The notes beneath the pieces were generated by a model, which was given only the letters and a program-made list of their open reading frames with translations, was not told the DNA's origin and ran no database searches. DNA of 64,000 nt from Candidatus Peribacteraceae bacterium (GTDB taxonomy: Bacteria > Patescibacteriota > Gracilibacteria > Peribacterales > Peribacteraceae), in the NCBI GenBank assembly GCA_028703835.1, contig JAQVMB010000003.1, forward strand, positions 5,493 through 69,492. The letters are read 5' to 3'. Positions within the stretch are counted from its first letter, which is position 1. Each line of letters opens with the position of its first letter. Made by a program: the position numbers and the translations under genes. Of the stretch, positions 17,113 through 29,172 are shown piece after piece.

Positions 17113-19359
17113 TCAGATCAGCGGCTCCTCGAACGTCTCCGAGACCATCGCCACTTCTTCTTTGGAGGGAGGCGCCGACGCGGCTTCGTCCCACTTCGCC
17201 AGCATCTCTTCCACCTCTTTGCGCGGCGTGCAGTATTTGCGCCGTGACGCGTCGATGATCTCCTTCGTGTAATCTTCGGCGGGTGCCGGAGCGTTCAGTG
17301 TCTTGCCGGAGAACGCATCGCGCAATTCGCCATTCACCGACATCTTGATGTAGAAATCGCGGACGCCCAAGTTGATGATGTCGCGCTCCTTGAAGACCGG
17401 GTTGTATTCGCCTTCCAGGATCATCGCGTCTTCGGCTCCGACGCGGAAACTGATCATGGAACCCACGTTGCCGAAGACCGTCTTGCGAACAAAGTCGGAG
17501 AGCTGGCCCATGTACTGGTGGGCGATGGTGAGGTTGAGCTTGTACTTGCGCGCCTCCGACAAGATTTCCGAAAACGTGTCCGTGGCGAAGTTCTGGAATT
17601 CGTCGACGTAGAAGTAGAAGTCTTTGCGCTGGTCTTCCGCGGTGTCCGCGCGGCTCATGGCGGCCTGGTAGAGCTTCGTGATGAACATCGCGCCGATGAG
17701 CGATGAGTTCTCCTCGCCGAGCAATCCTTTGGATACTTTCATCAGGAGGATCTTCTTCTTGTCCATGATCTCGCGGATGTCGAACTTGGTCTTCGGCTGG
17801 CCGATCATGTTGCGGATCATGTTCGTCGCCACGAACTGACCGACTTTGTTGAGGAGCGGCGTGATGGCGTCGGCGTCGAACTTTTCGGACCATGCGGCGA
17901 ATTCCGACACCCAGAAGTTTTTCACCACGGAGTCCTGGATGCGCGACACGATCTTCTGGCGGTAGTTCTTGTCCGTGAGCATCTTGAGGATGGACAGGAC
18001 CGTCGTGTTCGGGCTGTCGAGGAGGGCGAGCGTGGTGTAGCGCAGCACGTGTTCCAAACGGTCGGACCAGTTGTTGCCGAAAAGCTTTTTGAAGATCTGC
18101 AGGAAACCGATCGTCACTTGCATCTTGTACGCCTCCTCCACGCGCTCGAGCGGGTTGAAGGCGATGGGGAAGTCGATGTCGCCGGGATCCAGGAGCACGA
18201 CGTCTTCGATGCGGTGTTTCGGCACCATGCGCAGGACGGCGTCGACCAGGTCGCCGTGCGGGTCCAAGACGGAGATGCCTTCGCCGTTCTTCAGGTCTTC
18301 GTTGATGAGGAGCTCCAGCAGCTTGCTCTTCCCCACGCCGGACTTGCCGACGATGTAGAGGTGACGCCGGCGGTCGGCGCGGCGGATGCCGAAGGGGACG
18401 AAGTTGTTGTGGTAGTTCGTCACGCCGAAGCCGCTCACGTCGCTTTCTCCGATCTTGGGCAAGTCCTGCGGCGGGTCGGACTTGCGCGCGAGGACGTGGA
18501 CGATGTGCGGGACGTAATCCGCGTTCGGGAAGTGGAAGAGCGTGGCGACTTCCTTCGCGTTGAGGATACGCAGCGTCGCGTGGGACCGTTCGCGGTATTT
18601 CCGCAGGAACGAGGCGGCGTTCTTCACGGGTACGCCGTGGAACCCGTTGATATCCTTGTCGTTGAATTGCGAGAAACTGTCCGTGACGGCGTTGAGTTTC
18701 AGGCGGGCTGCCTCCTCGTTATCGCTGATGTACGCGCAGCGGATGCTGACGCGGTACGGCTTGATCTCCGCCTTGTCTTTTGCTTTCGCATGTCGAACTT
18801 CGCCGATCCCTTTGCGTCCTCCTTCGCGCAGGCGGTCGCGGATGCTGAAGAAGTGGCGGATGTGCGCCAGCCGGATGCGGATGCGGCGGGCGAGATGGAA
18901 GAAGCCCGTGTCATCGCAAGGTTCCGCGATGATCTGCACCCACACCTGGTCGCTCGGCCCGATCTTGGAGATGACGGAGAAGAGGCGCGACGCGCTGTCC
19001 TCCTCGAAGACGTCGAAGGTCTTGATGGGGTAGATGTCCGAATGCTTCAGTTCCACGTTGGCGCAGGCGATCGACTGTTTCTTGGGATCAAAGCGCGTCG
19101 TGTAATCGTCCGTCTCGCGGATTTCGGCGTCCGGGAACGTCGCGTAAATCAAGCTCTCCACCGTCGAGAACAACTGCTGGTCGACGACCATGAAGAAATA
19201 CGTGTACTGCGCGAAGCCGAAGAACTCCAGCGACACGCGCTTCCCCGTGAACGTGTTGCGCATGTTGATCAGAAGCTCCTGGAACTTGGATTCCAGCTTC
19301 TTGTTCCCTTCCGTGCCCTGGGGAATGACGATGTGGAGATAGCGGAGCGTACCGGCCAT
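17113..19359 (-). CDS. TraD/TraG/VirD4-like (FtsK/HerA-superfamily) ATPase with uncharacterised N-terminal domain, no TM helices
   Basis: ORF 17113..19362, read from the ATG at 19359. Contains Walker A GKSGVGKS, Walker B-like FYFYVDEFQNF, and ARKYKLNLTIAHQYMGQL. The N-terminal ~330 aa are not recognised. Confidence 0.75.
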   Translation of the reverse strand: MAGTLRYLHIVIPQGTEGNKKLESKFQELLINMRNTFTGKRVSLEFFGFAQYTYFFMVVDQQLFSTVESLIYATFPDAEIRETDDYTTRFDPKKQSIACANVELKHSDIYPIKTFDVFEEDSASRLFSVISKIGPSDQVWVQIIAEPCDDTGFFHLARRIRIRLAHIRHFFSIRDRLREGGRKGIGEVRHAKAKDKAEIKPYRVSIRCAYISDNEEAARLKLNAVTDSFSQFNDKDINGFHGVPVKNAASFLRKYRERSHATLRILNAKEVATLFHFPNADYVPHIVHVLARKSDPPQDLPKIGESDVSGFGVTNYHNNFVPFGIRRADRRRHLYIVGKSGVGKSKLLELLINEDLKNGEGISVLDPHGDLVDAVLRMVPKHRIEDVVLLDPGDIDFPIAFNPLERVEEAYKMQVTIGFLQIFKKLFGNNWSDRLEHVLRYTTLALLDSPNTTVLSILKMLTDKNYRQKIVSRIQDSVVKNFWVSEFAAWSEKFDADAITPLLNKVGQFVATNMIRNMIGQPKTKFDIREIMDKKKILLMKVSKGLLGEENSSLIGAMFITKLYQAAMSRADTAEDQRKDFYFYVDEFQNFATDTFSEILSEARKYKLNLTIAHQYMGQLSDFVRKTVFGNVGSMISFRVGAEDAMILEGEYNPVFKERDIINLGVRDFYIKMSVNGELRDAFSGKTLNAPAPAEDYTKEIIDASRRKYCTPRKEVEEMLAKWDEAASAPPSKEEVAMVSETFEEPLI

Positions 19360-19454
19360 CAAAGGAGGAGAATACGAATATTATAGCAGAAAATGAGCTT
19401 TTACTGAAGGATGAAGCGTTCTGCCAAAGGGGAATGGTAGCGGTAAAACGAGCA

Positions 19455-21131
19455 CTAATACACCATTTTCAGATAGCAGGATTCACAGTAGACGATCTCC
19501 GGTCTTTCCGGGGCGTAGTTCGTGCTGATGGCCGCGTTGCACCGGGCGCAGTTCCTCTGCCAGAGTTTCCGTGGATTTCGCAGTGCCATGCGGTCAGCAT
19601 GCCGTTGGTCGGGGCATCGGCGCGGGACGGGGAGGCCCATCGTGCGGTAGAACTTCAATTCCTGCGGGATGATCTTGAACGGTCTGCCTGTGGACTCGCA
19701 GATCAGGATCCGGTCGCAGATGTCGTCGGGAACGTCCCTGATTGCGGCGGGGACCGGGACGGGCGGCCCTTTGTATGATTCCTTCTTTTCCTGCGGTTCG
19801 TTGTACCAGTTCCATCCCTGCTTCTTCGCTTCTTCCTCCGTGAGCGGGAAATTCTCCTGCGCCAGCGTCTCGTTGTAGCCCATGTAAGAAAGATGCGGTT
19901 GCAGGTAATCGCCCCACTCGCCGGTCTTGCGCATGTGTTCAATGATGCGCGGCACGAGCGCTTCATACTCTTCCTTCGTGTACTGCTTGTTCAGGATGCA
20001 GTACTTCTTGCGTCGCATGCTGATGCAGCCGAAGACATTCTGGCAATGGTGAATTTCGCGGCTGTAGTAGTTGTCGCTACCGTACCAGCAGAGGAACGTA
20101 CCCATCGTTCGCTGTCCGCCGACGGTCGATCCCACATTGAAGCTGAACTCGATGCCGTCAGGTGCCGTGTAGTTTCCGTCCTGGCTGTACTTGCTCTTCG
20201 GCGAGTTCCACAGGTACGTGCAATCCTCGCATGCGGTGCAGTCAAACGTGTACTTGCAGTTCTTGCTGTTGAAGACCATGTCTCCCGTACAGTCCTCGCT
20301 GCCCAGGGTATGCGCTGCACGATGGGGGAGCGGCTTCTTCAACTCTTCGAACTTCTCACGCAGGAGGCGCATCTTTTCGGGCGTGAAGGGGCGCAGTTCT
20401 GCCAGACGCTTCTCATATTCTTCTTTGCTGAGAGGTTTGTTCAGGAAGCAGTATTCCTTGTTCTGCAGGCCGAAGCACAGAAAGCAGTTCTTGCACGACT
20501 GGCAATCTTCCACCATGAGGCAGTCGGTACAGTTGCGGCAGTTCATGAAGTGGAAGCATTGATAGCACTGTTGCGACGCGATGCCCTCGTAGCACCACTC
20601 GCAGGAGTAGAGCGACAGGCCGTCCACGACATCTTTGGAATCGATCACGAAGCGACCGTAGAGGCAGTTCTCGGCATTGGTGATGCCGGCGACGAGGTAG
20701 CAGTCGCGGCAGTTGAGGGAGTGGTTGGTGTAGTAGCTGTTCTGTTCGTTGGTGGTGAAGAGCGACTGGTGCGGGACCGCCAAACCCAGTGCGGCGAATT
20801 GTTCCGAGAAAGTCTCGTTGAAGTCGAAGGGGCGACCGTACGACAGCTCGTCCCACCTGTCGCTCCAGAACTCCTCCTGGTCGTAGACCTTGTACGGTTT
20901 GTCCGGAGCGTAGATGGAAACGATCTGCTTGCCGGAGAGATCGGATTTCCGGTGGTAGAGGTTCAGGTCGTTGCGGAAGGCAAGACGTCGGCGAAAGCGG
21001 CAGTCCGGGCAGAATACCGGCGGTGGGATCTGCTCCTTCTTGCCGTTGAAGACAGGGGAGACCGTGTCGTAAAACACGAGGTCATTCGGAGTGATCTCAA
21101 AGGCAGCCGAGCATTGTTTGCAGGTGGCCAT
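19455..21131 (-). CDS. Cys-rich zinc-ribbon paralogue A (unnamed family)
   Basis: ORF 19455..21239. The internal ATG at 21131 (MATCKQCSAAFEITPNDLVFY...) aligns with its sisters and overlaps the upstream stop by 1 nt (TAATG). About 35 Cys by hand count. Ends ...NCARCNAAISTNYAPERPEIVYCESCYLKMVY. Confidence 0.85.
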   Translation of the reverse strand: MATCKQCSAAFEITPNDLVFYDTVSPVFNGKKEQIPPPVFCPDCRFRRRLAFRNDLNLYHRKSDLSGKQIVSIYAPDKPYKVYDQEEFWSDRWDELSYGRPFDFNETFSEQFAALGLAVPHQSLFTTNEQNSYYTNHSLNCRDCYLVAGITNAENCLYGRFVIDSKDVVDGLSLYSCEWCYEGIASQQCYQCFHFMNCRNCTDCLMVEDCQSCKNCFLCFGLQNKEYCFLNKPLSKEEYEKRLAELRPFTPEKMRLLREKFEELKKPLPHRAAHTLGSEDCTGDMVFNSKNCKYTFDCTACEDCTYLWNSPKSKYSQDGNYTAPDGIEFSFNVGSTVGGQRTMGTFLCWYGSDNYYSREIHHCQNVFGCISMRRKKYCILNKQYTKEEYEALVPRIIEHMRKTGEWGDYLQPHLSYMGYNETLAQENFPLTEEEAKKQGWNWYNEPQEKKESYKGPPVPVPAAIRDVPDDICDRILICESTGRPFKIIPQELKFYRTMGLPVPRRCPDQRHADRMALRNPRKLWQRNCARCNAAISTNYAPERPEIVYCESCYLKMVY

Positions 21132-22819
21132 TAGTAGACGGAAGCGAGGTAACACTCTTCGCAGTAGACGATCTCGGAACGGTCGGGAGCGTAGGTTGTC
21201 CGCATCTCTTTGCTGCAGTTCATGCACGGACGAAGCCACAGCTGGCGGGGATTGCGGAGGGCAAGCCGCAGGTCGTAACGCACGTCAGGATGGAGGCGAG
21301 GAACGGGTAATCGCTGCTTCCTATAGAAGTCCAGTTCCTGCTTCGTCACTTTGAACGGACGCTTTGTTATGTCGCATTCGATGGCCCAGTTCGTTATGTC
21401 ATCGGGAATGTCATCGATGAAGTCGGGCAGGCGGGAAGCCGGGATGGTTTTCGCTACCTGCAATTGCTTCTCCTCGCTATCACGCCAATAAAAGCCCCGA
21501 GTGAGAGCTTCCTCTTTCGTCAGCGGCAGGTATTCCCCCGCGAGTGATTCGTTGTAACCGAAGGCGGAGAGTGCCGGCGGGAAGAATTTTCCCCATTCTT
21601 CCGTTCTCTTCATCTTCTCGATGATCTTGGGCACGAGCGACTCATACTCGCTCTTTGAATACTGTTTGTTCAGGATGCAGTACTGCTTGTGGCGCAGCGC
21701 GACGCAGCCGAAGCAGTCATGACAGTTGAAGCAGTATTCGCAATAGAGAAGGTTCTGGCTGTGGAAGACGTATAGACAGTAGGCCGTGCTGTAGGTCTCG
21801 ATCGTTCCGAGCGTTTCGTACGCAAGCTCTGGTTTGACGTACATGTTCGAGCAGTCGTAGTTGTCCTTTACCCCAACGCCCACGGTCACGTAGCGGCTGT
21901 CCTGGCTGTCGTTCACGTCGTAGCAGTCCAAACAACGTTGCGAATTCTCGATGTAATCACCGCTGCACACCTCGCTGTTCACGATGTTCGAGCCGCGATG
22001 GATGGTTGTCTGCCGCAAGGCAGCGAGTTTCCGCTTCAGCTCTTCCGACCGCGCATGGAACCCGCGCACTTCCCGGACTTTCCTCTCGTATTCTTCTCTC
22101 GGCAGGGGCTTGTTTTCAAAGTGATATTCCTTCTGCCGCAAGTTGCTGCAGAGGAAGCAGTTGCTGCATCCTACGAGGTTGAGGGACCAGGAACAGTCGC
22201 GGCAATTCTTGCTGAACGAGACGTGGTTGCAGTTATAGGAGTCATACACCGAGAAGCATTCGTAGCAGAGCTCGGAGTTGTAGAGGTAGGAGCAATCCAC
22301 CGAGCTCTTGCAGCTTTGGTAGAGCTTTCCATAGTAACAATCCTCGCAGTACTCCGAGGAGTTGATGAGGTAACAGTTTTTGCAGTAGGCGGTCCCTGCT
22401 GAAAAATCTGAATTCTCATTCTGCAGAATCATCATGCCGAGGCGCGGCGCATCTTTATGGAGAGCGGCAAACTGCGGGAAGAAAGGTTTGCCGAAGTCGT
22501 ACGGCCGTCCCAGTTCCGTGTTATCGAGCTTGTCGTCATAGAACTCATCGGAGGTGTAGACCTTGTCGGGCTTTCCCCACAGGGGAATCTCATGGAACGT
22601 CGAAACCATGTCTTTGCCCGAGAGCGTGGAAGAACGTTTATAGAAGCTGCGCTCGTTGCGGTGACAGGTGCGGATCCGCAGCCGACACTCCGGACAGAAG
22701 ACTGGCAGTGGCGGATGAATGGCTTGTTCCCCGAACGTAAACGTCATCTTCTGAACGAATGTTTCTTCGTCAGGAGCAATGGCGAACGGCGCCTGACAAC
22801 GAAGACACGTCTTCTGCAT
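21131..22819 (-). CDS. Cys-rich zinc-ribbon paralogue B
   Basis: 562 aa. Starts MQKTCLRCQAPFAIAPDEE... and ends ...CMNCSKEMRTTYAPDRSEIVYCEECYLASVY. Its start is 4 nt downstream of the stop of C. Confidence 0.85.
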   Translation of the reverse strand: MQKTCLRCQAPFAIAPDEETFVQKMTFTFGEQAIHPPLPVFCPECRLRIRTCHRNERSFYKRSSTLSGKDMVSTFHEIPLWGKPDKVYTSDEFYDDKLDNTELGRPYDFGKPFFPQFAALHKDAPRLGMMILQNENSDFSAGTAYCKNCYLINSSEYCEDCYYGKLYQSCKSSVDCSYLYNSELCYECFSVYDSYNCNHVSFSKNCRDCSWSLNLVGCSNCFLCSNLRQKEYHFENKPLPREEYERKVREVRGFHARSEELKRKLAALRQTTIHRGSNIVNSEVCSGDYIENSQRCLDCYDVNDSQDSRYVTVGVGVKDNYDCSNMYVKPELAYETLGTIETYSTAYCLYVFHSQNLLYCEYCFNCHDCFGCVALRHKQYCILNKQYSKSEYESLVPKIIEKMKRTEEWGKFFPPALSAFGYNESLAGEYLPLTKEEALTRGFYWRDSEEKQLQVAKTIPASRLPDFIDDIPDDITNWAIECDITKRPFKVTKQELDFYRKQRLPVPRLHPDVRYDLRLALRNPRQLWLRPCMNCSKEMRTTYAPDRSEIVYCEECYLASVY

Positions 22820-22823
22820 ACGT

Positions 22824-24503
22824 TCAATATACTTCCTTCAGATAGCATTCTTCGCAATAGACCTTTTCCGGCCGTTCGGGGGCGTAGGTCGTCTGCATCT
22901 CCTTTCCGCAATGCATGCACTTCCTTCCCCAAAGCGTGCGGGGATTGCGCCGGAGCATCCTCCGACGGTGTCGTTCGTCGGGATGGAAATGAGGAAGGGG
23001 GAATCCGCGTTCTCGGTAGAACTCCAGTTCCTTCTTCACGATTCTGAACGGGCGGTTTGTTGCTTCGCACTTGATTGCCCACTGGAGAATGTCGTCAGGT
23101 ACCTGCGTGATATCCGTCGGCAGCGTCGAGGCTGCGATGATTTTCTTCACGTCCGGCAATTCCGTTTCTTCCTCGCGCCACGGCCAGCCGCGGCTCTTCG
23201 ACTCCATTTCCGTAAGCGGGAAATACTGCTGCGCCGTCGTTTCGTTGTAGGCGAACGGTGAGATTCCTGCAGGAAAGAATTCTCCCCATTCTTGCGTTGA
23301 TCGCATGTGTTCGATCACTGTCGGTACGAGCGATTCATACTCTTCCTTCGTGTATTGCTTGTTCAGGATGCAGTGCTTCCCGGGCTTCATGGAGACGCAA
23401 CCGCACATGTGTGATCCAGACTGGACGATGTCGCAGTAGAGCAGGTGCTTGCTGCCCCAGGAGCCGTGCGTAAAGATGGCGTTGTAAGAGCCGTAGCCGA
23501 GGCTGAGCGATTCGTACCCTAGCTGGGCGTCCGTGGTGTGGCAGACATCCAATAGGTCTTTGATCTGAAAGCCGGTGAAAATGTTTGCACAGTCTTCGCC
23601 GTACGAAACGTCGAAGCAGTTCTGCAGGTTCCGCGAGTTCTTCAGGTAGTCGCCCGTCACGTTCTCGCAGCTCACTACTTCGCGCGCCCGATGGATGCTC
23701 TGCTCTTTGAAGCGGGAGAATTCTTGCCGCATCTTCGGCAGCCCGCCCTTTGCCATTTCTTGAAGCAGCGCGCGCTTCTCTTTCGCGTACTCTGCGGGAG
23801 TGAACGGCTTGTTGCGGATGTGGAAGCGTTTGTTGCGAAGATTGACGGAGAAGAGGCAGTCTGCGCAGCCTTTGCAGTCGAAGAGGAACATGCTGTCCGA
23901 GCAGTTGGTGCAGTTTTGGGAGAACGACACGGTGTGGCACTTGTCGACGTCGGTCACTTCGAAGCAGTACTGCGACTCCGTGCAGTCTCCGGCGTCGATG
24001 CAGCCCGTCGACTTGATGACCTGGTAGCCGTAGAGGCAGTCTTCGTTGAACTCCGCGGCGAAGAGCAGGTAGCAGTTCTTGTTGGAGCCGGAGAGATTGA
24101 TGAATTCCGAGTTCTCGTTATTCACCACGTTGAGCGCGAGGCGCGGAACGACGTTCTGCAGCTCATTGATCTGCGGGAAGAACGGACGGTTGAAATCGAC
24201 ATTCCGCCCGAAGCTGCGCGGGTCCCACTTGTCCGACCACCAGCACTCCGTGCAGTAGACGGGGAATGCGCTCTTCGTCGGGTAGACGGAGATGATGGAC
24301 TTCTTGCACGCGTCACAGGTGCGGCGGTACAGCGTCCGCTCGTTACGCCAGAAGAGCCTTCGCTGCTGACGGCAGTCGGGGCAGAGCGTGGGCGCAGGGA
24401 TCTCGAAGCGCTTGCCGCCGAACTCGGGCGCCATCTTGGCACGGAGCTCTTCTTCGAGCGGAGTGACGGTGAAGGCCGAGGAGCATTGCTTGCAGGTTGG
24501 CAT
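22824..24503 (-). CDS. Cys-rich zinc-ribbon paralogue C
   Basis: ORF 22824..24602, read from the internal ATG at 24503 (MPTCKQCSSAFTVTPLEE...). Ends ...CMHCGKEMQTTYAPERPEKVYCEECYLKEVY. Confidence 0.85.
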   Translation of the reverse strand: MPTCKQCSSAFTVTPLEEELRAKMAPEFGGKRFEIPAPTLCPDCRQQRRLFWRNERTLYRRTCDACKKSIISVYPTKSAFPVYCTECWWSDKWDPRSFGRNVDFNRPFFPQINELQNVVPRLALNVVNNENSEFINLSGSNKNCYLLFAAEFNEDCLYGYQVIKSTGCIDAGDCTESQYCFEVTDVDKCHTVSFSQNCTNCSDSMFLFDCKGCADCLFSVNLRNKRFHIRNKPFTPAEYAKEKRALLQEMAKGGLPKMRQEFSRFKEQSIHRAREVVSCENVTGDYLKNSRNLQNCFDVSYGEDCANIFTGFQIKDLLDVCHTTDAQLGYESLSLGYGSYNAIFTHGSWGSKHLLYCDIVQSGSHMCGCVSMKPGKHCILNKQYTKEEYESLVPTVIEHMRSTQEWGEFFPAGISPFAYNETTAQQYFPLTEMESKSRGWPWREEETELPDVKKIIAASTLPTDITQVPDDILQWAIKCEATNRPFRIVKKELEFYRERGFPLPHFHPDERHRRRMLRRNPRTLWGRKCMHCGKEMQTTYAPERPEKVYCEECYLKEVY

Positions 24504-24617
24504 CCAGCCCACTGTACGGCCGGATATGCCGTCATACAATTGTCGCATGAGGGTTTCCGATTTTGCCCTGGCAGAAGAGCCGTTCGTGAACCCGATATTC
24601 ACGCGCCACTGTGAAGA

Positions 24618-25406
24618 TCACGCCCCCACGCCCTGCTTCCACATCGATTCGAACTGGTTGCGATAGAGTTCGATAAGTTCCGGTTGCCGGATGACGATGA
24701 CGCGCGGGTTCGTGTCGTCACAGATGAAGTGGCTGACGTGGGCGTCGGCGAAGGCGAGGTAATCGTCCGTCACGGGGATGTCATCGACGAGGCGGCTTGT
24801 GCGCAGTTCACGTGAATCCCTCTTTGCGAATGTTTCCGCTTCGGGCGTGCGGGGATTGAAGATGCGGCAGTAGATGCCGCGGTCCAGACGCTTGCGGCGG
24901 AACGCCAATTCTTCGGGCGCCTCGTCGGACAGACCCGCCACTCGCCAGTAGTTCGCCATGTTTCCGAGATGCAGGTACTCGTCGGTGCAGCAATCGGGCA
25001 GCTTCAGATATTCCTCCCGGAACGCTTCCACCCCTTCCCGGATCTCCACGGGTTCCGCTTCGTCGATCTTCGCTTCGTTGTCCAGGTACGGAAGCAGCGA
25101 GTCCAGACCGGCCAAGGCCAGCCGGAGCTTTCGCATCTTCCGCTGGTCTGCGTCCAGCTTCGTGATGATGGCGCGGAGCGTGAGGGGCGAGAAGACCGAT
25201 TGCTTCCGGTTCAGCTTCATCGGGGAAACGAGTCCGCGATCCTGAAGTCTCTTCATGGTGCGATAGGCCGTCATCACGTTGAGGCCGCTCGCGGCGATCA
25301 GTTCCGTCATCGATGCACGGCGCAGCTTCAGCAGCTGCAGGTACAGCGCAATTTCCTCCTCGCGGAGTCCCGCCAGCCGAAGAAGATCCTGGATGCGGCT
25401 ACGCAT
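24618..25406 (-). CDS. TrmB-family winged-helix transcriptional regulator
   Basis: 262 aa. The N-terminal LGLREEEIALYLQLLKLRRASMTELIAASGLNVMTAYRTMKRLQDRGLV fits a TrmB-type wHTH. It is embedded between paralogues D and C on the same strand. Confidence 0.7.
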   Translation of the reverse strand: MRSRIQDLLRLAGLREEEIALYLQLLKLRRASMTELIAASGLNVMTAYRTMKRLQDRGLVSPMKLNRKQSVFSPLTLRAIITKLDADQRKMRKLRLALAGLDSLLPYLDNEAKIDEAEPVEIREGVEAFREEYLKLPDCCTDEYLHLGNMANYWRVAGLSDEAPEELAFRRKRLDRGIYCRIFNPRTPEAETFAKRDSRELRTSRLVDDIPVTDDYLAFADAHVSHFICDDTNPRVIVIRQPELIELYRNQFESMWKQGVGA

Positions 25407-25433
25407 GGAAGAGGCAGTATAGCTCAGTTGGCT

Positions 25434-27122
25434 TCAATACACCTCTTTGAGATAGCATTCTTCGCAATACACGATTTCCGGCCGCTCCGGAGCATACGTC
25501 GTCCTCATCTCCTTCCCGCATTTCATGCAGGAGCGGATCCAGAGTTTGCGGGGGTTGCGCAGCGCCATGCGTCGTTTATGTCGCTCGTCAGGATGGAAAT
25601 GCGGAATCGGAAGCCGCATCTTCCGGTAGAACTCCAGCTCTTGCTTGATGACCTTGAAGAGGCGCCCCGAGACCGGGCAGCGGATCGCCGCGTGCAGGAT
25701 GTCATCCATGACGTCGTTGATACGGTCGGGAAGATTCTTCGCGTCCAGCGTTCGCGTCGCTTGCGGCGGCTCTTCCGCTTCCTCCCGCCACGACCATCCG
25801 CGCTTACGAGCTTCTTCTTTGGTGACCGGGAAGTACTCGGGCTCGTTCGCCACCGATTCGTTGTAAGCGTACGGAGAGGCGTCGACGGGGAAGAACTCGC
25901 CCCATTCGCCCGTCTTCCGCATGTGTTCGATGATCTTCGGTACGAGCGTTTCGTATTCTTCCCTCGTGTACCGCTTGTTGAGGATGCAGTACTTTCCGTT
26001 CCTGATGCCCACGCAGCCGAAACAATCGGATGAAGTGATGGCCAAGTCGCAATAGAGGAGATCATGGTTCACCGTGCTGTAGCTCCCGTGCGTGAAGAGG
26101 ACGTTCCTGCCGGTGATCGTGAGGCCTTCGTACGCAAGTTCCTGGAATGCGCCGTGGTCGACATCCATCGACGAGACCACTTGCTCGTCGAGACGGGTGC
26201 AGTGCTTCAAGTCCTGGCATTTGTCGCCGTCGAAGCAGGAGTGGCAACGGAGAGAGTGTTGGAGGTAGTCGCCGGTGCAATCTTCGCATTGGATGTTGTG
26301 TGAAGCCCGTCGCAGGGCTTGCGGGAGAAGGTTCTTGAACGTTTCACGATGTTTCTCGAATGCGGCATGCGAACCGGACAGGATATCCGCGACCGTACGC
26401 TCAAATGCTTCCTTGCCGACTTCTTCATTGAAGATGCAGTACTTTTTCCCGCGAAGATTGCTGCAGAACGCGATGTTCTGGCATTGCTGGCAGTCGATGC
26501 TGAAGAATGCGTCGGAGCAGTTCTTACAGTCCACGAGAGAGACGCAGTGATAGCAGAGAGTGGAGTCGAGGAGGTCATAGCTGCGCTCCGCGTCGCGGGA
26601 GAAGGCGCAGTCGGAGGAATCTTTCGAATGGTACGTGGCGTGACAGTACAGGTCGTTCTCATTGAATCCGCCGTCGATGCACATGTAGCAATTCTTGGAC
26701 TGCCAGACTTGGTTCACGTAGGGGCAGTTTTCATTGTTGATGACCGCGAGCGACAGGCGCGGGACGTTGTTCCGCAGTTCCCGGAATTGATCGAAGAAGG
26801 GCCGGTAGAAGTCGAACGGACGGCCGTAGGAGAACGGGTCCCACGCATCCGTGTACCACGCCTCCGTCTCGAAGACGGGAAAGGGCTTCTCCGGGGCGTA
26901 GGTCGAGATGATGGGTTTGTTCGTCAGGCCGCACTGTCGACGGTACAGGTTCCGTTCATTGCGAAATGACAGGCGACGTTGCGAGCGGCAATCCGGACAC
27001 AGCGTCGGAGGCGGGATCAACTTTTTCTTTCCGCTGAAGACGGGCGATACTTTCTCGTAGAACACGAGATCGTCGGGAGTGATGTCGAAGGAAGCCCGGC
27101 ATTGGCGACACGTTCTATGCAT
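25434..27122 (-). CDS. Cys-rich zinc-ribbon paralogue D
   Basis: ORF 25434..27221, read from the internal ATG at 27122 (MHRTCRQCRASFDITPDDLVFYEKVSPVF...). Ends ...CMKCGKEMRTTYAPERPEIVYCEECYLKEVY. Confidence 0.85.
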   Translation of the reverse strand: MHRTCRQCRASFDITPDDLVFYEKVSPVFSGKKKLIPPPTLCPDCRSQRRLSFRNERNLYRRQCGLTNKPIISTYAPEKPFPVFETEAWYTDAWDPFSYGRPFDFYRPFFDQFRELRNNVPRLSLAVINNENCPYVNQVWQSKNCYMCIDGGFNENDLYCHATYHSKDSSDCAFSRDAERSYDLLDSTLCYHCVSLVDCKNCSDAFFSIDCQQCQNIAFCSNLRGKKYCIFNEEVGKEAFERTVADILSGSHAAFEKHRETFKNLLPQALRRASHNIQCEDCTGDYLQHSLRCHSCFDGDKCQDLKHCTRLDEQVVSSMDVDHGAFQELAYEGLTITGRNVLFTHGSYSTVNHDLLYCDLAITSSDCFGCVGIRNGKYCILNKRYTREEYETLVPKIIEHMRKTGEWGEFFPVDASPYAYNESVANEPEYFPVTKEEARKRGWSWREEAEEPPQATRTLDAKNLPDRINDVMDDILHAAIRCPVSGRLFKVIKQELEFYRKMRLPIPHFHPDERHKRRMALRNPRKLWIRSCMKCGKEMRTTYAPERPEIVYCEECYLKEVY

Positions 27123-27229
27123 GGATGGAACGTTGGGAAGTGTTTGCAGATGCGGAAAATGCCGGATGCAAGTGAATATTCTCCCCATCCGCTGTCTGCT
27201 GCTTACTGTCGCCGCTATCATGACCGTCC

Positions 27230-27490
27230 ATGGCGAAGAAGCCCGCCCCCATCACGCTCCGTACCGTCCTGCGGCACATGCAGGAGATGAAGCAGGACCT
27301 CCTGCAGCATATGCAGGGGATGAAACGGGAACTTGTGACGAAGGTGGACGCCGTGGAGATGCGTTTGACGGAGCGTATCGACCGCGTCGAACGGAATCTG
27401 ACGATGCAGATCGACGGATTGGACAAGCGCCTCGATGACATCGAAGTGTTCCAACTCCCGAAGCTGAAGAAAGCGGTCGGCATGCGTTAA
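27230..27490 (+). CDS. small coiled-coil protein
   Basis: 86 aa. Heptad-rich MQEMKQDLLQHMQGMKRELVTKVDAVEMRLTERIDRVERNLTMQIDGLDKRLDDIE. Divergent from D. Its stop overlaps the stop of E (TTAA). Confidence 0.55.
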   Translation: MAKKPAPITLRTVLRHMQEMKQDLLQHMQGMKRELVTKVDAVEMRLTERIDRVERNLTMQIDGLDKRLDDIEVFQLPKLKKAVGMR

Positions 27491-29136
27491 TAGACTTCTT
27501 TAAGGTAGCACTCCTCGCACAGGGTCCTCCCGTCATATTCCTGGGGCCAGCTCGTCTGCGTCTCCTTCTTGCACTTGCCGCAGGCGACCGTCCGCAGTTC
27601 GCCGTTGAACGGAATGAGGCGGAAGTTTTCCTGCAGGCGGCGCATGTAATAGGTGTGCGGTAACGGCGCGCAAAGGTCTTTCGCGAACGCGATGTCCACG
27701 TCCGCGATCTGGAACGGCCGCTTTGCGACAGGATCCCAGAACACTTTCTTGGACAGATCCGTACCGGCATCATCGCTCCGGTCGGGGACCTGTGATGCGT
27801 CGATGGCGTCGGATATCCGTTCCGGCTTCTCCGTGCTCATGCGGAACCCGCGCTTCGTTCCTTCTTCCCGCGTGAGCGGCCAGTAGAAACCGGCAAGGCT
27901 TTCTTCATAGGGATTCGCCGCGAAGTGTCCGGGAAAGAATTGTCCGTACTCTCCGGTTCTCTTCATCGCCGCGATGATGTCCGCTTTGCGTTTCTCATAC
28001 TCCTCCGGTGTGTACGGTTTGTTGAAAATGTGATATTTCTTCCCGACCAACCCGCAGCAGCCGAAGCAGTGCTGGCACTGGAAGCAGTGTGCACTGTATT
28101 CCATTTCTTTGGATTGGACGACAAGATAGGAAAAGCGAACATTATAACACTTATCGAGTGCCGAAGAGCTGAAAAATACTAATTCATCTTCGTAAAAATT
28201 CGTATTGTCTAAACAATCTTTGGAATGAACACCTCCCCGGAAGCAGTTTATGCAATCCTCGGCTCCAGTCGATGTAAAATAACAATTTACGCAATTTCTG
28301 CATTCCTCGAGGTAGTTGCCAGTCGAATCTTCCGACTGGTCGAGCATTTGTGATCGATGCCAAGCGTTTGTCCGCAGCATATTACGGAAAGATATGTGAG
28401 TGGCTTCATAGATTTTCCACGACCGCAGATTTAGTTCACGAAGCTTCTGCAAATATTCCTCCTTCGAAAATTGGCGGTTGCCAATGCAATATTGCTTGTT
28501 TCGCAAATTGCAACATAGAACGCAATTGCTGCAATTTCGGCAATCATAGAGAAATGCGCTGTCGCTGCATTGCCAGCAGTTGAGTGCAAAAATAGTCTGA
28601 AAGCAGAAGTGACTGAAAGTGATATCAATACAACGCTGCGAGTCGAAGGAAAAAACTGCATATTGGGAATCCTTCACGCGTAAAACACGAAAACAATAAC
28701 GTACATCTTCGTCCTCCACTCCCGAATGACTTAAATAGCAATTCTTTGAGTACCACCAATCATCGGTGTATTCACAGTTTTCGTTTCCAGCGCCTAAATT
28801 ATGTGCGATGGGAGAATTTTGAAAAATCTCCCACATTTGAGGGAACAGCGGCTTCGTCAGATCCGCGTCCGCGGACGGAGGATTCGCATTCTTGATCCAC
28901 TCGTCCTTGTGCCACACGGGATACGGGCAGTCCTCGGAAAACACGGAGATGATCTGCTTGCCGGTCTTGTCGCACTTTCGTTTATGCAGCGTCCAATGCT
29001 GCCAAAATGCTCCAACGATTTGCCAGCGGACAATGGGGTGGAGGTCCGGCTCGCCGTCGATGCCGAGTTTCTTCCGCAAAGCTGTCTCCTGTTCACTGAC
29101 CGTGAACGTCCTGCCGGTGACGCGGCAAACGGGCAT
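27487..29136 (-). CDS. Cys-rich paralogue E (divergent; N-terminal zinc ligands lost; low-GC core)
   Basis: ORF 27487..29142, read from the ATG at 29136 (MPVCRVTGRTFTVSEQE...). Shares KYHIFNKPYTPEEYEKRKADIIAAMKRTGEYGQFFP and ...CGKCKKETQTSWPQEYDGRTLCEECYLKEVY with its sisters. Confidence 0.8.
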   Translation of the reverse strand: MPVCRVTGRTFTVSEQETALRKKLGIDGEPDLHPIVRWQIVGAFWQHWTLHKRKCDKTGKQIISVFSEDCPYPVWHKDEWIKNANPPSADADLTKPLFPQMWEIFQNSPIAHNLGAGNENCEYTDDWWYSKNCYLSHSGVEDEDVRYCFRVLRVKDSQYAVFSFDSQRCIDITFSHFCFQTIFALNCWQCSDSAFLYDCRNCSNCVLCCNLRNKQYCIGNRQFSKEEYLQKLRELNLRSWKIYEATHISFRNMLRTNAWHRSQMLDQSEDSTGNYLEECRNCVNCYFTSTGAEDCINCFRGGVHSKDCLDNTNFYEDELVFFSSSALDKCYNVRFSYLVVQSKEMEYSAHCFQCQHCFGCCGLVGKKYHIFNKPYTPEEYEKRKADIIAAMKRTGEYGQFFPGHFAANPYEESLAGFYWPLTREEGTKRGFRMSTEKPERISDAIDASQVPDRSDDAGTDLSKKVFWDPVAKRPFQIADVDIAFAKDLCAPLPHTYYMRRLQENFRLIPFNGELRTVACGKCKKETQTSWPQEYDGRTLCEECYLKEVY

Positions 29137-29172
29137 GGCCACAAGTGTACCAAACTTACCTTTCGTTCACTA

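What the first reader, a model, noticed from the sequence alone, without database searches (positions are those of the whole stretch)
22824..24503. Pseudo-twofold internal architecture: homologous N- and C-terminal zinc-ribbon modules and a duplicated Cys-block/KEEYE unit
Seen in sequence, and clearest in paralogue C:
- The N-terminal segment is CKQCSSAFTVTPLEE...LCPDCRQQRRLFWRNERTLYRRTCDACKKSIISVYPTKSAFPVYCTECWW.
- The C-terminal segment is NRPFRIVKKELEFYRERGFPLPHFHPDERHRRRMLRRNPRTLWGRKCMHCGKEMQTTYAPERPEKVYCEECYL.
- Both share the pattern R..RR...RN[EP]RTL[YW].R.C..C.K.[IM].[ST].Y...VYC.EC[WY].
- The interior also looks duplicated. Each Cys-rich block ends in a similar linker: in A, LQNKEYCFLNKPLSKEEYEKRL and RRKKYCILNKQYTKEEYEALV.
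- In A and D the third and fourth Cys pairs of the N-terminal module are lost.
- In E the first two pairs are lost as well.
- The C-terminal module is intact in all five copies.

Inference: the family arose by internal duplication. The C-terminal ribbon is under the strongest constraint. The N-terminal copy is free to decay or diversify.
Basis: seen in the sequence. Interest (0 to 1): 0.7.

Follow-up and report, generated by a model that had tools for sequence, protein, structure and literature searches.

The report
Internally duplicated CPR zinc-finger protein family
Five neighbouring genes of a Peribacteria (candidate phyla radiation) genome encode an uncharacterised, cysteine-rich protein with matching double zinc-finger modules at both ends and a duplicated core. 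The family is large and sits next to the same regulator and ATPase genes in many genomes, but its function is unknown.

Summary
The repeats are real. In paralogue C (22824-24503, minus strand) the N-terminal ~90 residues and the C-terminal ~85 residues are homologous (shuffle z 14-19 in A, C and D; profile-profile E 1.5e-27). So are the two Cys-rich core blocks with their KEEYE linkers (E 1.7e-32). Cross-controls are negative.

Three details need correcting:
- Each end module is a pair of treble-clef-like fingers (Pfam zf_Tbcl + zf_Tbcl_2), not a zinc ribbon.
- The C-terminal module is not intact. Its first finger is degenerate in all five copies.
- Paralogue B has also lost the second N-terminal finger.

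Across 352 relatives the outer fingers are kept (N1 77%, C2 94%) and the inner ones are usually lost (N2 26%, C1 18%).

The domain order Z-B-B-Z cannot come from one tandem duplication. Block duplication is supported by single-block and hybrid variants. A free-standing Z protein exists in Firmicutes, so the origin of the two Z modules is unresolved.

The family is known only from Patescibacteria and forms arrays of up to 10 genes. These arrays are tightly linked to a TrmB-like regulator and a soluble VirD4/HerA-like ATPase. Function is unknown. My low-confidence guess is a zinc-stabilised scaffold with two binding ends.

The parts
24348..24503 (-). Paralogue C, finger N1 (residues 1-52): CxxC ... 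helix ... CPDC followed by an Arg-rich helix. It is zf_Tbcl-like.
   Evidence: All four Cys are present. The AF2 model shows a knuckle plus helix 42-50 at pLDDT >90. This finger is intact in 270 of 352 relatives. PF13451 hits this position in relatives at 23-24 bits.
24228..24347 (-). Paralogue C, finger N2 (residues 53-92): RNERTLYRRTC..C ... VYC..C. It is zf_Tbcl_2-like.
   Evidence: CCCC in C only. It is lost in A, B, D and E and intact in 92 of 352 relatives. Cys 66, 84 and 87 co-occur perfectly (r = 1.00).
23700..24146 (-). Paralogue C, core block B1 (residues 120-268): Cys-ladder repeats of 9-12 residues, the LRNK..NK..EY linker, and a long helix.
   Evidence: hhalign against B2 gives E 1.7e-32. 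Cys columns follow a strict period-3 register. AF2 shows short strands and helix 236-268, with pLDDT 65-67 over residues 150-210.
23298..23699 (-). Paralogue C, core block B2 (residues 269-402): homologous block, the YCILNKQYTKEEYE linker, and a helix.
   Evidence: hhalign. AF2 pLDDT is mostly >90. The linker helix is among the most conserved segments, with pairwise identity 0.57.
23079..23297 (-). Paralogue C, acidic middle segment (residues 403-475) with the motif EWGEFFP..SPFAYNET.
   Evidence: Mean net charge is -7.3. It has no counterpart elsewhere in the chain.
22950..23078 (-). Paralogue C, finger C1 (residues 476-518): a degenerate copy of N1, with CEAT... / HPDE in place of CxxC / CPDC.
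   Evidence: It aligns with N1. Its ligand positions read CTHE. This finger is intact in only 65 of 352 relatives.
22827..22949 (-). Paralogue C, finger C2 (residues 519-559): CxxC-x17-CxxC, the end of the protein.
   Evidence: CCCC in all five paralogues and in 330 of 352 relatives. PF23477 scores 25 bits and TIGR04272 20 bits, both below their cut-offs.
19455..21131 (-). Paralogue A (558 aa, counted from M37 of the longest ORF).
   Evidence: Same five-part architecture by HMM. 41% identical to C. Its start codon overlaps the stop codon of B (TAATG).
21131..22819 (-). Paralogue B (562 aa).
   Evidence: 39% identical to C. It starts 4 nt after the stop codon of C.
25434..27122 (-). Paralogue D (562 aa, counted from M34 of the longest ORF).
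   Evidence: 48% identical to C.
27487..29136 (-). Paralogue E (549 aa), the most divergent copy.
   Evidence: 33% identical to C. Its N module still scores as N-type (66 bits against 23 bits for the C-type HMM).
24618..25406 (-). TrmB-like winged-helix regulator gene lying inside the array.
   Evidence: PF01978 E 1e-8, 35.3 bits, above its cut-off. Relatives lie within 300 nt of a family gene for 51 of 57 such genes in 80 other loci.
17113..19362 (-). Soluble VirD4/TraG/HerA-like P-loop ATPase gene immediately downstream of paralogue A.
   Evidence: PF02534 E 7e-9, plus PF01935 and PF10412. No transmembrane segment. Relatives occur in 24 of 80 loci, always within 300 nt of a family gene and on the same strand. 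Orthologous neighbours also carry DUF8128.

Best explanation
WHAT IT IS. The five genes are anciently diverged paralogues of a soluble, cytoplasmic, roughly 560-residue Cys-rich protein known only from Patescibacteria. Its architecture is Z-B-B-mid-Z.

THE Z MODULE. Z is an ~85-residue pair of treble-clef-like Cys4 fingers (Pfam zf_Tbcl followed by zf_Tbcl_2) joined by a conserved Arg-rich helix. The same pair exists as a free-standing small protein in other bacteria.

THE B BLOCK. B is a ~140-residue block with no curated family. It consists of 9-12-residue rungs carrying Cys (or Ser) in a fixed register, then a conserved '..YC.LNK.Y.KEEYE' turn and a helix.

HOW THE REPEATS AROSE. B was duplicated in tandem. 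The second Z arose either by intragenic duplication or by a second capture of the module. Both events predate the spread of the family.

DECAY OF THE FINGERS. The four potential zinc sites then decayed in a complementary way. The outermost fingers (N1 and C2) are kept, and the inner ones (N2 and C1) are dispensable.

FUNCTION (inferred, low confidence). The protein is a compact, zinc-stabilised scaffold that presents two related basic finger modules. It binds a nucleic acid or an acidic partner at both ends. It works together with the co-transcribed soluble VirD4/HerA-like ATPase, under control of the embedded TrmB-like regulators. The paralogues supply different specificities.
For: SHOWN
- Both repeats are statistically solid.
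- The Z module matches a bona fide PF13451 + PF23477 protein over its full length, E 1e-14 to 1e-18.
- Finger Cys are all-or-none, with r = 1.00 within a site. This is how ligand sets behave.
- The ligand census gives N1 270, N2 92, C1 65 and C2 330 of 352, and an independent sample reproduces the order.
- 358 of 437 family ORFs have the same five-part architecture.
- Single-block and hybrid-block variants exist.
- N-to-C identity is the same within a protein (0.295) as between proteins (0.288), so the duplication is old and there is no gene conversion.
- Paralogue C is 74% identical to proteins of other genomes but only 33-48% identical to its neighbours.
- There is no hydrophobic segment.
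- The AF2 model has pLDDT 87 and pTM 0.86, which implies a defined compact arrangement of the domains.
- Arg 45, 48, 49, 53, 61 and Arg 511, 515, 519, 522, 527 are at least 90% conserved. The Z modules are basic, and the core and middle segment are acidic.

GENE LINKAGE
- 60 of 80 loci hold at least 2 copies, and one locus holds 10.
- The TrmB-like gene lies within 300 nt of a family gene in 51 of 57 cases.
- The ATPase is always adjacent and co-directional, 27 of 27 genes.
- C, B and A are packed with a 4-nt gap and a TAATG overlap.
Against: - No experiment or annotated relative bears on function. Every named relative is 'hypothetical protein'.
- The conserved Arg stripe could be an internal salt-bridge partner of the acidic KEEYE helices or the middle segment rather than a ligand-binding surface.
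- No nucleic-acid-binding family is hit. The closest sequence match to a solved structure is the second finger of LIM domains (E 1.5e-3), and from general knowledge LIM domains bind proteins.
- Metal content is inferred from Cys patterns only.
- The block 1 model is only moderately confident (pLDDT 65-67).
- Whether the second Z arose by intragenic duplication or by a second capture is unresolved.
- The ATPase is present in only 24 of 80 loci (11 of the 26 full-size loci), so it is not an obligate partner in cis.
Confidence: 0.8

Rival explanations
1. A single internal duplication of a [zinc module + Cys block + KEEYE] unit gave a pseudo-twofold protein. The C-terminal copy stays constrained while the N-terminal copy decays.
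For: Both kinds of unit are duplicated. C2 is the most conserved finger. In this window the N2 finger is lost in four of five copies.
Against: The order is Z-B-B-mid-Z, not Z-B-Z-B, so one tandem event cannot produce it. N1 is intact in 77% of relatives, whereas C1 is intact in 18%, so each module loses a different finger. N-module conservation equals that of C1. The middle segment has no N-terminal counterpart.
Confidence: 0.1
2. The two end modules were acquired independently. Each arose by fusion of a free-standing zf_Tbcl + zf_Tbcl_2 gene to one end of a B-B core. Only the core was duplicated inside the gene.
For: A free-standing 92-aa Z protein exists. It scores 40-54 bits against the N- and C-module HMMs, about the same as N and C score against each other (44-52 bits). 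A rare 157-aa Z-Z protein (P0266) shows that the modules can exist without the core.
Against: N and C are slightly closer to each other (29% identity) than to the outgroup (24.5%). Only one outgroup lineage was sampled, and it comes from a distant phylum. P0266 looks like an internal deletion of a full-length gene.
Confidence: 0.3
3. The proteins are substrates or effectors handed to a type IV secretion system by the adjacent VirD4-like coupling ATPase. The arrays would then be effector repertoires of an episymbiont.
For: The ATPase hits T4SS-DNA_transf, TrwB and TraG families and is always co-directional with and adjacent to family genes. Patescibacteria carry thousands of VirD4-like genes away from virB4 whose role is unknown (PMC12102498). 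Diversified tandem arrays and a basic, highly conserved C-terminus fit effector families.
Against: The ATPase has no membrane anchor. No other T4SS gene was found among the window ORFs scanned. Compact proteins held together by several zinc sites are poor candidates for unfolding-dependent export. No signal peptide is present. 56 of 80 loci lack the ATPase.
Confidence: 0.12
4. The repeats are an artefact of Cys/Arg-rich low-complexity composition.
For: The proteins contain 32-35 Cys and the Z modules are Arg-rich. For E alone the N/C similarity is not significant (z = 0.3).
Against: Composition-preserving shuffles never reach the observed scores in A-D. Profile comparisons give E 1e-27 and 1e-32, while equally Cys-rich cross-controls give E >= 0.019.
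Confidence: 0.01
5. The family is mainly a thiol-rich metal or redox buffer, and the fingers and ladders are simply Cys carriers.
For: There are about 38 Cys per protein and many gene copies in small genomes. Peribacteria proteomes are noted as Cys-rich (PMC4736985).
Against: Block Cys are replaced mostly by Ser, Leu or Val and are only weakly coupled to each other, as expected for core packing positions. Non-Cys motifs (KEEYE, EWGEFFP, the Arg stripe) are strongly conserved, and the paralogues have been kept distinct for a long time. This points to specific interactions.
Confidence: 0.07

Closest known systems
Free-standing zf_Tbcl (PF13451) + zf_Tbcl_2 (PF23477 / TIGR04272 CxxC-x17-CxxC) small proteins, e.g. 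WP_187028406.1 of Pusillibacter faecalis, annotated 'zinc-ribbon domain containing protein'
   Same: The same two-finger module in the same order and of the same length: CxxC..F.F...E.EFY....P..C..CR, a basic linker, then CxxC-x17-CxxC. It aligns end to end with both the N and C modules (E 1e-14 to 1e-18).
   Different: It is a 92-aa single module with no core. All eight Cys are kept. It lies downstream of an ECF-type sigma factor gene. Its function is also unknown. In the window proteins the module is divergent (sub-threshold Pfam scores), occurs twice, and has lost one finger per copy.
LIM domains (for example CRP1/CRP2, PDB 1ctl and 1b8t)
   Same: Two consecutive treble-clef-type zinc fingers form one module. 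The last finger matches the second LIM finger (E 1.5e-3; Pfam LIM 17.5 bits).
   Different: Only half of the LIM profile is matched and the score is below the cut-off. The fingers are about 18 residues apart with an Arg-rich helix between them, rather than contiguous. There is no significant fold match.
Beta-solenoid proteins: left-handed beta-helix enzymes, and (from memory) the 12-residue Cys-ladder beta-helix of Tenebrio antifreeze protein
   Same: Short repeats with a fixed inward-facing position. The weak top Foldseek hits are all left-handed beta-helix proteins. The Cys register is periodic, with rungs of 9-12 residues.
   Different: No significant structural match (best E 0.04, TM <= 0.28). 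There is no hexapeptide-repeat Pfam hit. The protein is cytoplasmic, so a disulfide ladder is unlikely. The antifreeze comparison is recalled from memory and was not tested.
Orphan VirD4-like coupling-protein homologues of Patescibacteria (PMC12102498)
   Same: The neighbouring ATPase belongs to this set. The paper counts 5,713 such genes, of which only 148 lie near virB4, and their role is unknown.
   Different: That paper does not mention the Z-B-B-Z family or the TrmB-like genes among the passages I searched. The ATPase here has no membrane anchor, and orthologous neighbours carry an N-terminal DUF8128.

Membership tests
Pfam PF13451 zf_Tbcl (first finger of each Z module) | Score at or above the gathering threshold (24 bits) | tested here: inconclusive
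   The window proteins score at most 15.9 bits (D, residues 35-83). Fully liganded relatives score 23.3-24.1 bits at both N1 and C1. Some relatives carry the precomputed hit.
Pfam PF13451 zf_Tbcl (first finger of each Z module) | Homology to a bona fide member over the whole finger | tested here: met
   The Pusillibacter protein scores 88.3 bits for PF13451. It matches the N- and C-module HMMs at E 1e-14 to 1e-18 across both fingers.
Pfam PF23477 zf_Tbcl_2 / NCBIfam TIGR04272 (last finger) | Two CxxC motifs 17 residues apart | tested here: met
   C529-x2-C532, then 17 residues, then C550-x2-C553 in paralogue C. All five paralogues read CCCC at these positions.
Pfam PF23477 zf_Tbcl_2 / NCBIfam TIGR04272 (last finger) | Score at or above the curated cut-off (27 bits for Pfam, 36 bits for TIGR04272) | tested here: not met
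   PF23477 scores 16.4-25.0 bits in A-D and gives no hit in E. TIGR04272 scores 13.4-20.2 bits. These are divergent relatives, not members by the curated thresholds.
   In the AF2 models the second CxxC of each finger starts a helix (helices 42-50, 85-88 and 551-558). This is the treble-clef arrangement. The evidence is a model only.
LIM domain (PF00412) | Full two-finger profile match above the cut-off, with contiguous fingers | tested here: not met
   Only profile positions 28-57 of 58 are matched, at 17.5 bits against a cut-off of 22.9. The PDB hits cover one finger only.
Left-handed beta-helix / hexapeptide-repeat proteins (for the core blocks) | Significant fold or profile match | tested here: not met
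   Best Foldseek PDB E 0.044, probability <= 0.28, TM <= 0.28. No Pfam hit in the blocks at E <= 1.
Known anti-phage defence systems (PADLOC-DB) | Any model hit to the Z-B-B-Z proteins | tested here: not met
   No hit for any of the five paralogues. The ATPase gives only weak mad8 and HerA hits.
Type IV coupling protein (VirD4/TraG), for the neighbouring ATPase | P-loop T4CP domain | tested here: met
   PF02534 E 7.3e-9 and PF10412 E 1.6e-5, both above their cut-offs.
Type IV coupling protein (VirD4/TraG), for the neighbouring ATPase | N-terminal membrane anchor and a linked T4SS channel (a general property of T4CPs; PMC12102498) | tested here: not met
   The maximum 19-residue hydropathy is 1.01, so there is no transmembrane segment. 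No other T4SS family appeared among the 20 window ORFs scanned.
TrmB family regulator, for the embedded 262-aa gene | N-terminal TrmB winged helix above the cut-off | tested here: met
   PF01978 scores 35.3 bits against a cut-off of 25.6. No match was found for the C-terminal ~190 residues.

The most novel reading that the evidence does not exclude
The Z-B-B-Z arrays, the embedded TrmB-like regulators and the soluble DUF8128/VirD4-like ATPase together form a previously undescribed functional system specific to Patescibacteria. It might handle or discriminate nucleic acids, or deliver proteins during episymbiosis. The diversified paralogues would act as interchangeable specificity subunits, and the core block would be a new Cys-ladder fold.
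Probability: 0.3. Interest if true: 0.75.

Novelty: new variant of a known kind. Interest (0 to 1): 0.5.

Why it matters
Patescibacteria have genomes of about 1 Mb. Even so, some carry up to 10 copies of this 1.7-kb gene in one locus, and further copies lie on other contigs of the same assemblies. That is a large investment in a protein nobody has characterised.

This work gives the family a domain map:
- a known but unstudied two-finger module at both ends;
- a duplicated core with no curated family and no fold match;
- a clear rule for which zinc sites matter (outer kept, inner expendable);
- two conserved gene partners.

This makes the family experimentally approachable. It also offers a possible role for some of the thousands of orphan VirD4-like ATPases reported in these bacteria. 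The internal duplication on its own is ordinary protein evolution.

Tried and rejected
- Pfam, NCBIfam and PADLOC gave no family for the protein body. PHROGs gave only phrog_15341, of unknown function, for block 1.
- A profile search of PDB sequences found only the second LIM finger.
- Foldseek with the full model against PDB and BFVD, and with a Z-module-only model against PDB, found nothing with E < 0.04.
- IMG/VR holds one fragmentary hit, so this is not a phage family.
- I guessed that the C-terminal extension of P0252 was a TrmB-like winged helix, which would have been a fusion linking the two families. Pfam and BLASTP did not support it.
- I asked whether E's degenerate N module is really a C-type module. 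It is not: it scores 66 bits as N-type against 23 bits as C-type.
- I considered discrete Cys4 zinc sites inside the blocks. This is disfavoured because block Cys are weakly coupled and are mostly replaced by Ser, Leu or Val. The highly conserved Cys 213, 216, 219, 369 and 378 remain candidates.
- All-against-all clustering of neighbouring ORFs found no further widely conserved partner. The second-largest cluster consists of antisense shadow ORFs inside the family genes.
- Literature searches for the Pfam names, for DUF8128, and for CPR Cys-rich families found no description of this family. The Cys-rich proteins of PMC4736985 are large exported proteins, a different set.
- Three-dimensional pseudo-symmetry could not be tested, because the tools return no coordinates or contact maps.
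Full report
WHAT IS THERE

The region 19455-29142 of the minus strand carries five paralogous ORFs: A 19455-21131, B 21131-22819, C 22824-24503, D 25434-27122 and E 27487-29136. A 262-aa gene lies between D and C. The finding's coordinates are paralogue C read from its Met34, which matches the 559-aa NCBI protein of a Candidatus Peribacteraceae MAG at 100% identity. The paralogues are 33-48% identical to C, whereas proteins of other genomes reach 74%. The copies are therefore old and have been kept distinct. C, B and A are tightly packed: a 4-nt gap, then a TAATG stop/start overlap. No paralogue has a hydrophobic segment (maximum 19-residue hydropathy 1.33), and each contains 32-35 Cys.

CHECKING THE OBSERVATION

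Every quoted peptide is present.

- Local alignment of the first 125 residues against the last 110, compared with 500 shuffles, gives z = 17.0, 6.7, 14.4 and 18.7 for A-D. No shuffle reaches the real score. E gives z = 0.3.
- I built a 118-sequence family alignment, cut it into segments and compared them with hhalign. N module versus C module gives probability 99.8%, E 1.5e-27 over 77 columns. Block 1 versus block 2 gives probability 99.9%, E 1.7e-32 over 130 columns. The six cross-comparisons of equally Cys-rich segments give E between 0.019 and 0.28.
- HMMER profiles of one block hit the other at 62-70 bits.
- Single-sequence block comparisons give z = 4.7-14.9.

Both duplications are real.

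The N/C similarity begins at the very first CxxC. Each terminal module (Z) therefore has two potential four-Cys sites, which I call N1, N2, C1 and C2.

The ligand residues in the window are:

| Paralogue | N1 | N2 | C1 | C2 |
|---|---|---|---|---|
| A | CCCC | SSDE | CTCQ | CCCC |
| B | CCCC | SSTE | CTHV | CCCC |
| C | CCCC | CCCC | CTHE | CCCC |
| D | CCCC | CTEA | CSHE | CCCC |
| E | CTHV | CTHE | DAYR | CCCC |

So B has also lost N2. The C-terminal module is not intact in any copy, because its first finger is degenerate.

In 352 distinct full-length relatives taken from 84 loci plus the window, all four Cys are present at N1 in 270, at N2 in 92, at C1 in 65 and at C2 in 330. The commonest pattern is + - - + (154 proteins), and 19 proteins keep all four sites. 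A separate sample of 138 cluster representatives gives the same order: 117, 56, 41 and 137.

Within a finger the Cys are all-or-none (r = 1.00 for columns 66/84/87 and for 482/510; r = 0.72 for 7/44). That is how metal-ligand sets behave.

Conservation by segment:
- C2 and the second KEEYE helix are the most conserved, with pairwise identity 0.57-0.58.
- N1, N2 and C1 are equal at 0.45.
- The solenoid parts are at 0.32-0.36.

NATURE OF THE MODULES

The Z module:
- An AlphaFold2 model of C built with 105 sequences has mean pLDDT 87 and pTM 0.86.
- In each finger the first CxxC lies on a hairpin and the second starts a helix. This is treble-clef rather than zinc-ribbon topology.
- Pfam gives sub-threshold zf_Tbcl_2 hits at the C-terminus and one sub-threshold zf_Tbcl hit at an N-terminus. 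In fully liganded relatives zf_Tbcl hits both N1 and C1 at about the threshold.
- A tblastn search with the N module found a 92-aa free-standing protein on a Pusillibacter faecalis replicon and an almost identical one on a gut 'phage' contig. This protein is a clear zf_Tbcl (88 bits) plus zf_Tbcl_2 (68 bits) pair. It matches both module HMMs end to end at E 1e-14 to 1e-18.
- Z is therefore a divergent copy of a known but functionally unstudied two-finger module. In both records the free-standing gene follows an ECF-type sigma factor gene. That is a single lead, not a test.

The B block:
- No Pfam or NCBIfam family matches it. Only phrog_15341, of unknown function, does.
- There is no significant fold match. 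The best Foldseek E is 0.04, and the weak top hits are all left-handed beta-helix proteins.
- Cys columns keep a strict register of three over about 90 residues (autocorrelation +0.5 to +0.7 at every multiple of 3 and about -0.3 elsewhere), with rungs of 9-12 residues.
- Unlike finger Cys, block Cys are only weakly coupled (maximum r 0.42, mostly at separations of 9 or 12). They are replaced mainly by Ser, then Leu, Val, Ile or Ala. I read them as a core ladder rather than obligate Cys4 sites. The nearly invariant Cys 213, 216, 219, 369 and 378 are possible exceptions.

EVOLUTION

The order Z-B-B-mid-Z is found in 358 of 437 family ORFs in the loci examined. Most of the remaining ORFs look truncated or run together. 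This order cannot arise from one tandem duplication of a Z-B unit.

For B, tandem duplication is well supported. Among 150 cluster representatives there are three single-block proteins (P0153, P0122, P0171) and two hybrids that join the N-part of block 1 to the C-part of block 2 (P0154, P0160).

For Z the evidence is weaker:
- N and C modules are 29% identical, and the value is the same within a protein (0.295) as between proteins (0.288). The event therefore predates the family's radiation, and there is no gene conversion.
- Each module is 24.5% identical to the free-standing outgroup.
- HMM cross-scores are about equal.

Intragenic duplication is thus only slightly favoured over two captures of a free-standing gene.

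DISTRIBUTION AND CONTEXT

- More than 6,800 proteins match C at E <= 1e-5. All named sources are Peribacteria, Peregrinibacteria, Gracilibacteria or Patescibacteria, and all are called hypothetical.
- A Z-module profile finds 3,275 clusters at 50% identity among 1.84 billion representatives. Among the 150 best, 138 are 500-620 residues long and all match the profile at least twice.
- A scan of GTDB species representatives found at least 594 loci. The 80 loci kept are all from Patescibacteria lineages or from unclassified bacteria.
- Within 10 kb of these 80 loci there are on average 3.4 copies. 60 loci have at least two, and one Peregrinibacteria locus has ten.
- A profile for the embedded TrmB-like gene finds it in 38 of 80 loci. 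Of 57 such genes, 51 lie within 300 nt of a family gene and 50 lie on the opposite strand. In the 64-kb window the only copy is the one inside the array.
- The downstream 749-aa ATPase (T4SS-DNA_transf, DUF87 and TrwB hits) recurs in 24 of 80 loci. All 27 copies lie within 300 nt of a family gene and on the same strand. It has no membrane segment, and orthologous neighbours carry DUF8128.
- A 2025 survey counted 5,713 VirD4-like genes in Patescibacteria, with only 148 near virB4 (PMC12102498). This ATPase belongs to that unexplained set.
- The rest of the window is housekeeping: GroEL, transketolase, pyruvate kinase, 6-phosphogluconate dehydrogenase, a Mur ligase and cell-surface proteins.
- One relative is fused to a GNAT acetyltransferase domain.

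MECHANISM

Shown:
- two related double-finger modules at the chain ends;
- a duplicated Cys-ladder core;
- complementary loss of the inner zinc sites;
- cytoplasmic character;
- a confidently predicted compact arrangement;
- tight gene linkage to a winged-helix regulator and a soluble P-loop ATPase.

Inferred at low confidence: the protein is a rigid, zinc-stabilised scaffold. Its two basic modules carry invariant Arg stripes on helices 42-52 and about 508-516, and they bind a nucleic acid or an acidic partner. The ATPase acts on the same substrate, and the paralogues provide different specificities. The Arg stripes could instead pair internally with the acidic KEEYE helices or with the middle segment (net charge -7). 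Only coordinates or experiments can tell.

VERDICT

The evolutionary reading needs two changes: there were two events rather than one, and the fingers decayed in a complementary way rather than only at the N-terminus. The repeat on its own is ordinary. The family, its unmatched core block and its conserved gene partners are undescribed in the sources I could search, and they are moderately interesting.

Noticed in passing
window 24618-25406 (-): A TrmB-like winged-helix gene sits inside the paralogue array. In other genomes the same kind of gene lies within 300 nt of a family gene in 51 of 57 cases, usually on the opposite strand. Here it is on the same strand.
   Followed up: yes
window 17113-19362 (-): A soluble VirD4/TraG/HerA-like ATPase with no membrane segment lies directly downstream of paralogue A. 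It hits phrog_5156 (unknown function) at E 2e-72. It recurs next to family genes on the same strand in 24 of 80 loci.
   Followed up: partly
L086:2980-3258 (Pusillibacter faecalis NZ_AP023421.1) and L087:1977-2258 (MT837064.1): A free-standing 92-93-aa zf_Tbcl + zf_Tbcl_2 protein, homologous to both terminal modules, lies immediately downstream of an ECF-type sigma-70 gene in both records. The two records are nearly identical, so this is effectively one observation.
   Followed up: partly
window 27230-27490 (+): An 86-aa ORF with a heptad-like, charged sequence (MAKKPAPITLRTVLRHMQEMKQDLL...) lies on the opposite strand in the 364-nt spacer between paralogues E and D. It overlaps the stop codon of E by 4 nt.
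   Followed up: no
window 19893-21134 (+), 23691-24614 (+), 24969-26033 (+), and equivalents in L005-L084: Long antisense 'shadow' ORFs (200-400 aa) run through the family genes. They cluster as an apparent second family: 353 of 453 lie more than 80% inside a family ORF, and none of these is on the same strand as that ORF. These are artefacts to ignore in gene calling.
   Followed up: yes
window 21129-21133 and 22820-22826 (-): The stop codon of B and the start codon of A overlap (TAATG). C and B are 4 nt apart. This suggests that C, B and A are translationally coupled in one operon.
   Followed up: partly
proteins P0266, P0216, P0204, P0153, P0122, P0171, P0154, P0160: Rare short family members exist: Z-Z only (157 aa), single-block forms (391-424 aa) and hybrid-block forms (450-499 aa). 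They look like in-register deletions between the internal repeats. Whether any of them is ancestral is unknown.
   Followed up: partly
protein P0263 (731 aa): One relative has an N-terminal GNAT acetyltransferase domain (Pfam E 3e-8) fused to a full Z-B-B-Z body. In that protein the outer fingers are degenerate.
   Followed up: partly
paralogue C residues 140-232 and 276-382 (window about 23358-24086): Cys-bearing alignment columns keep an exact modulo-3 register across each block in 334 relatives. This implies that no frame-breaking insertions or deletions are tolerated there. The structural reason is not established.
   Followed up: partly
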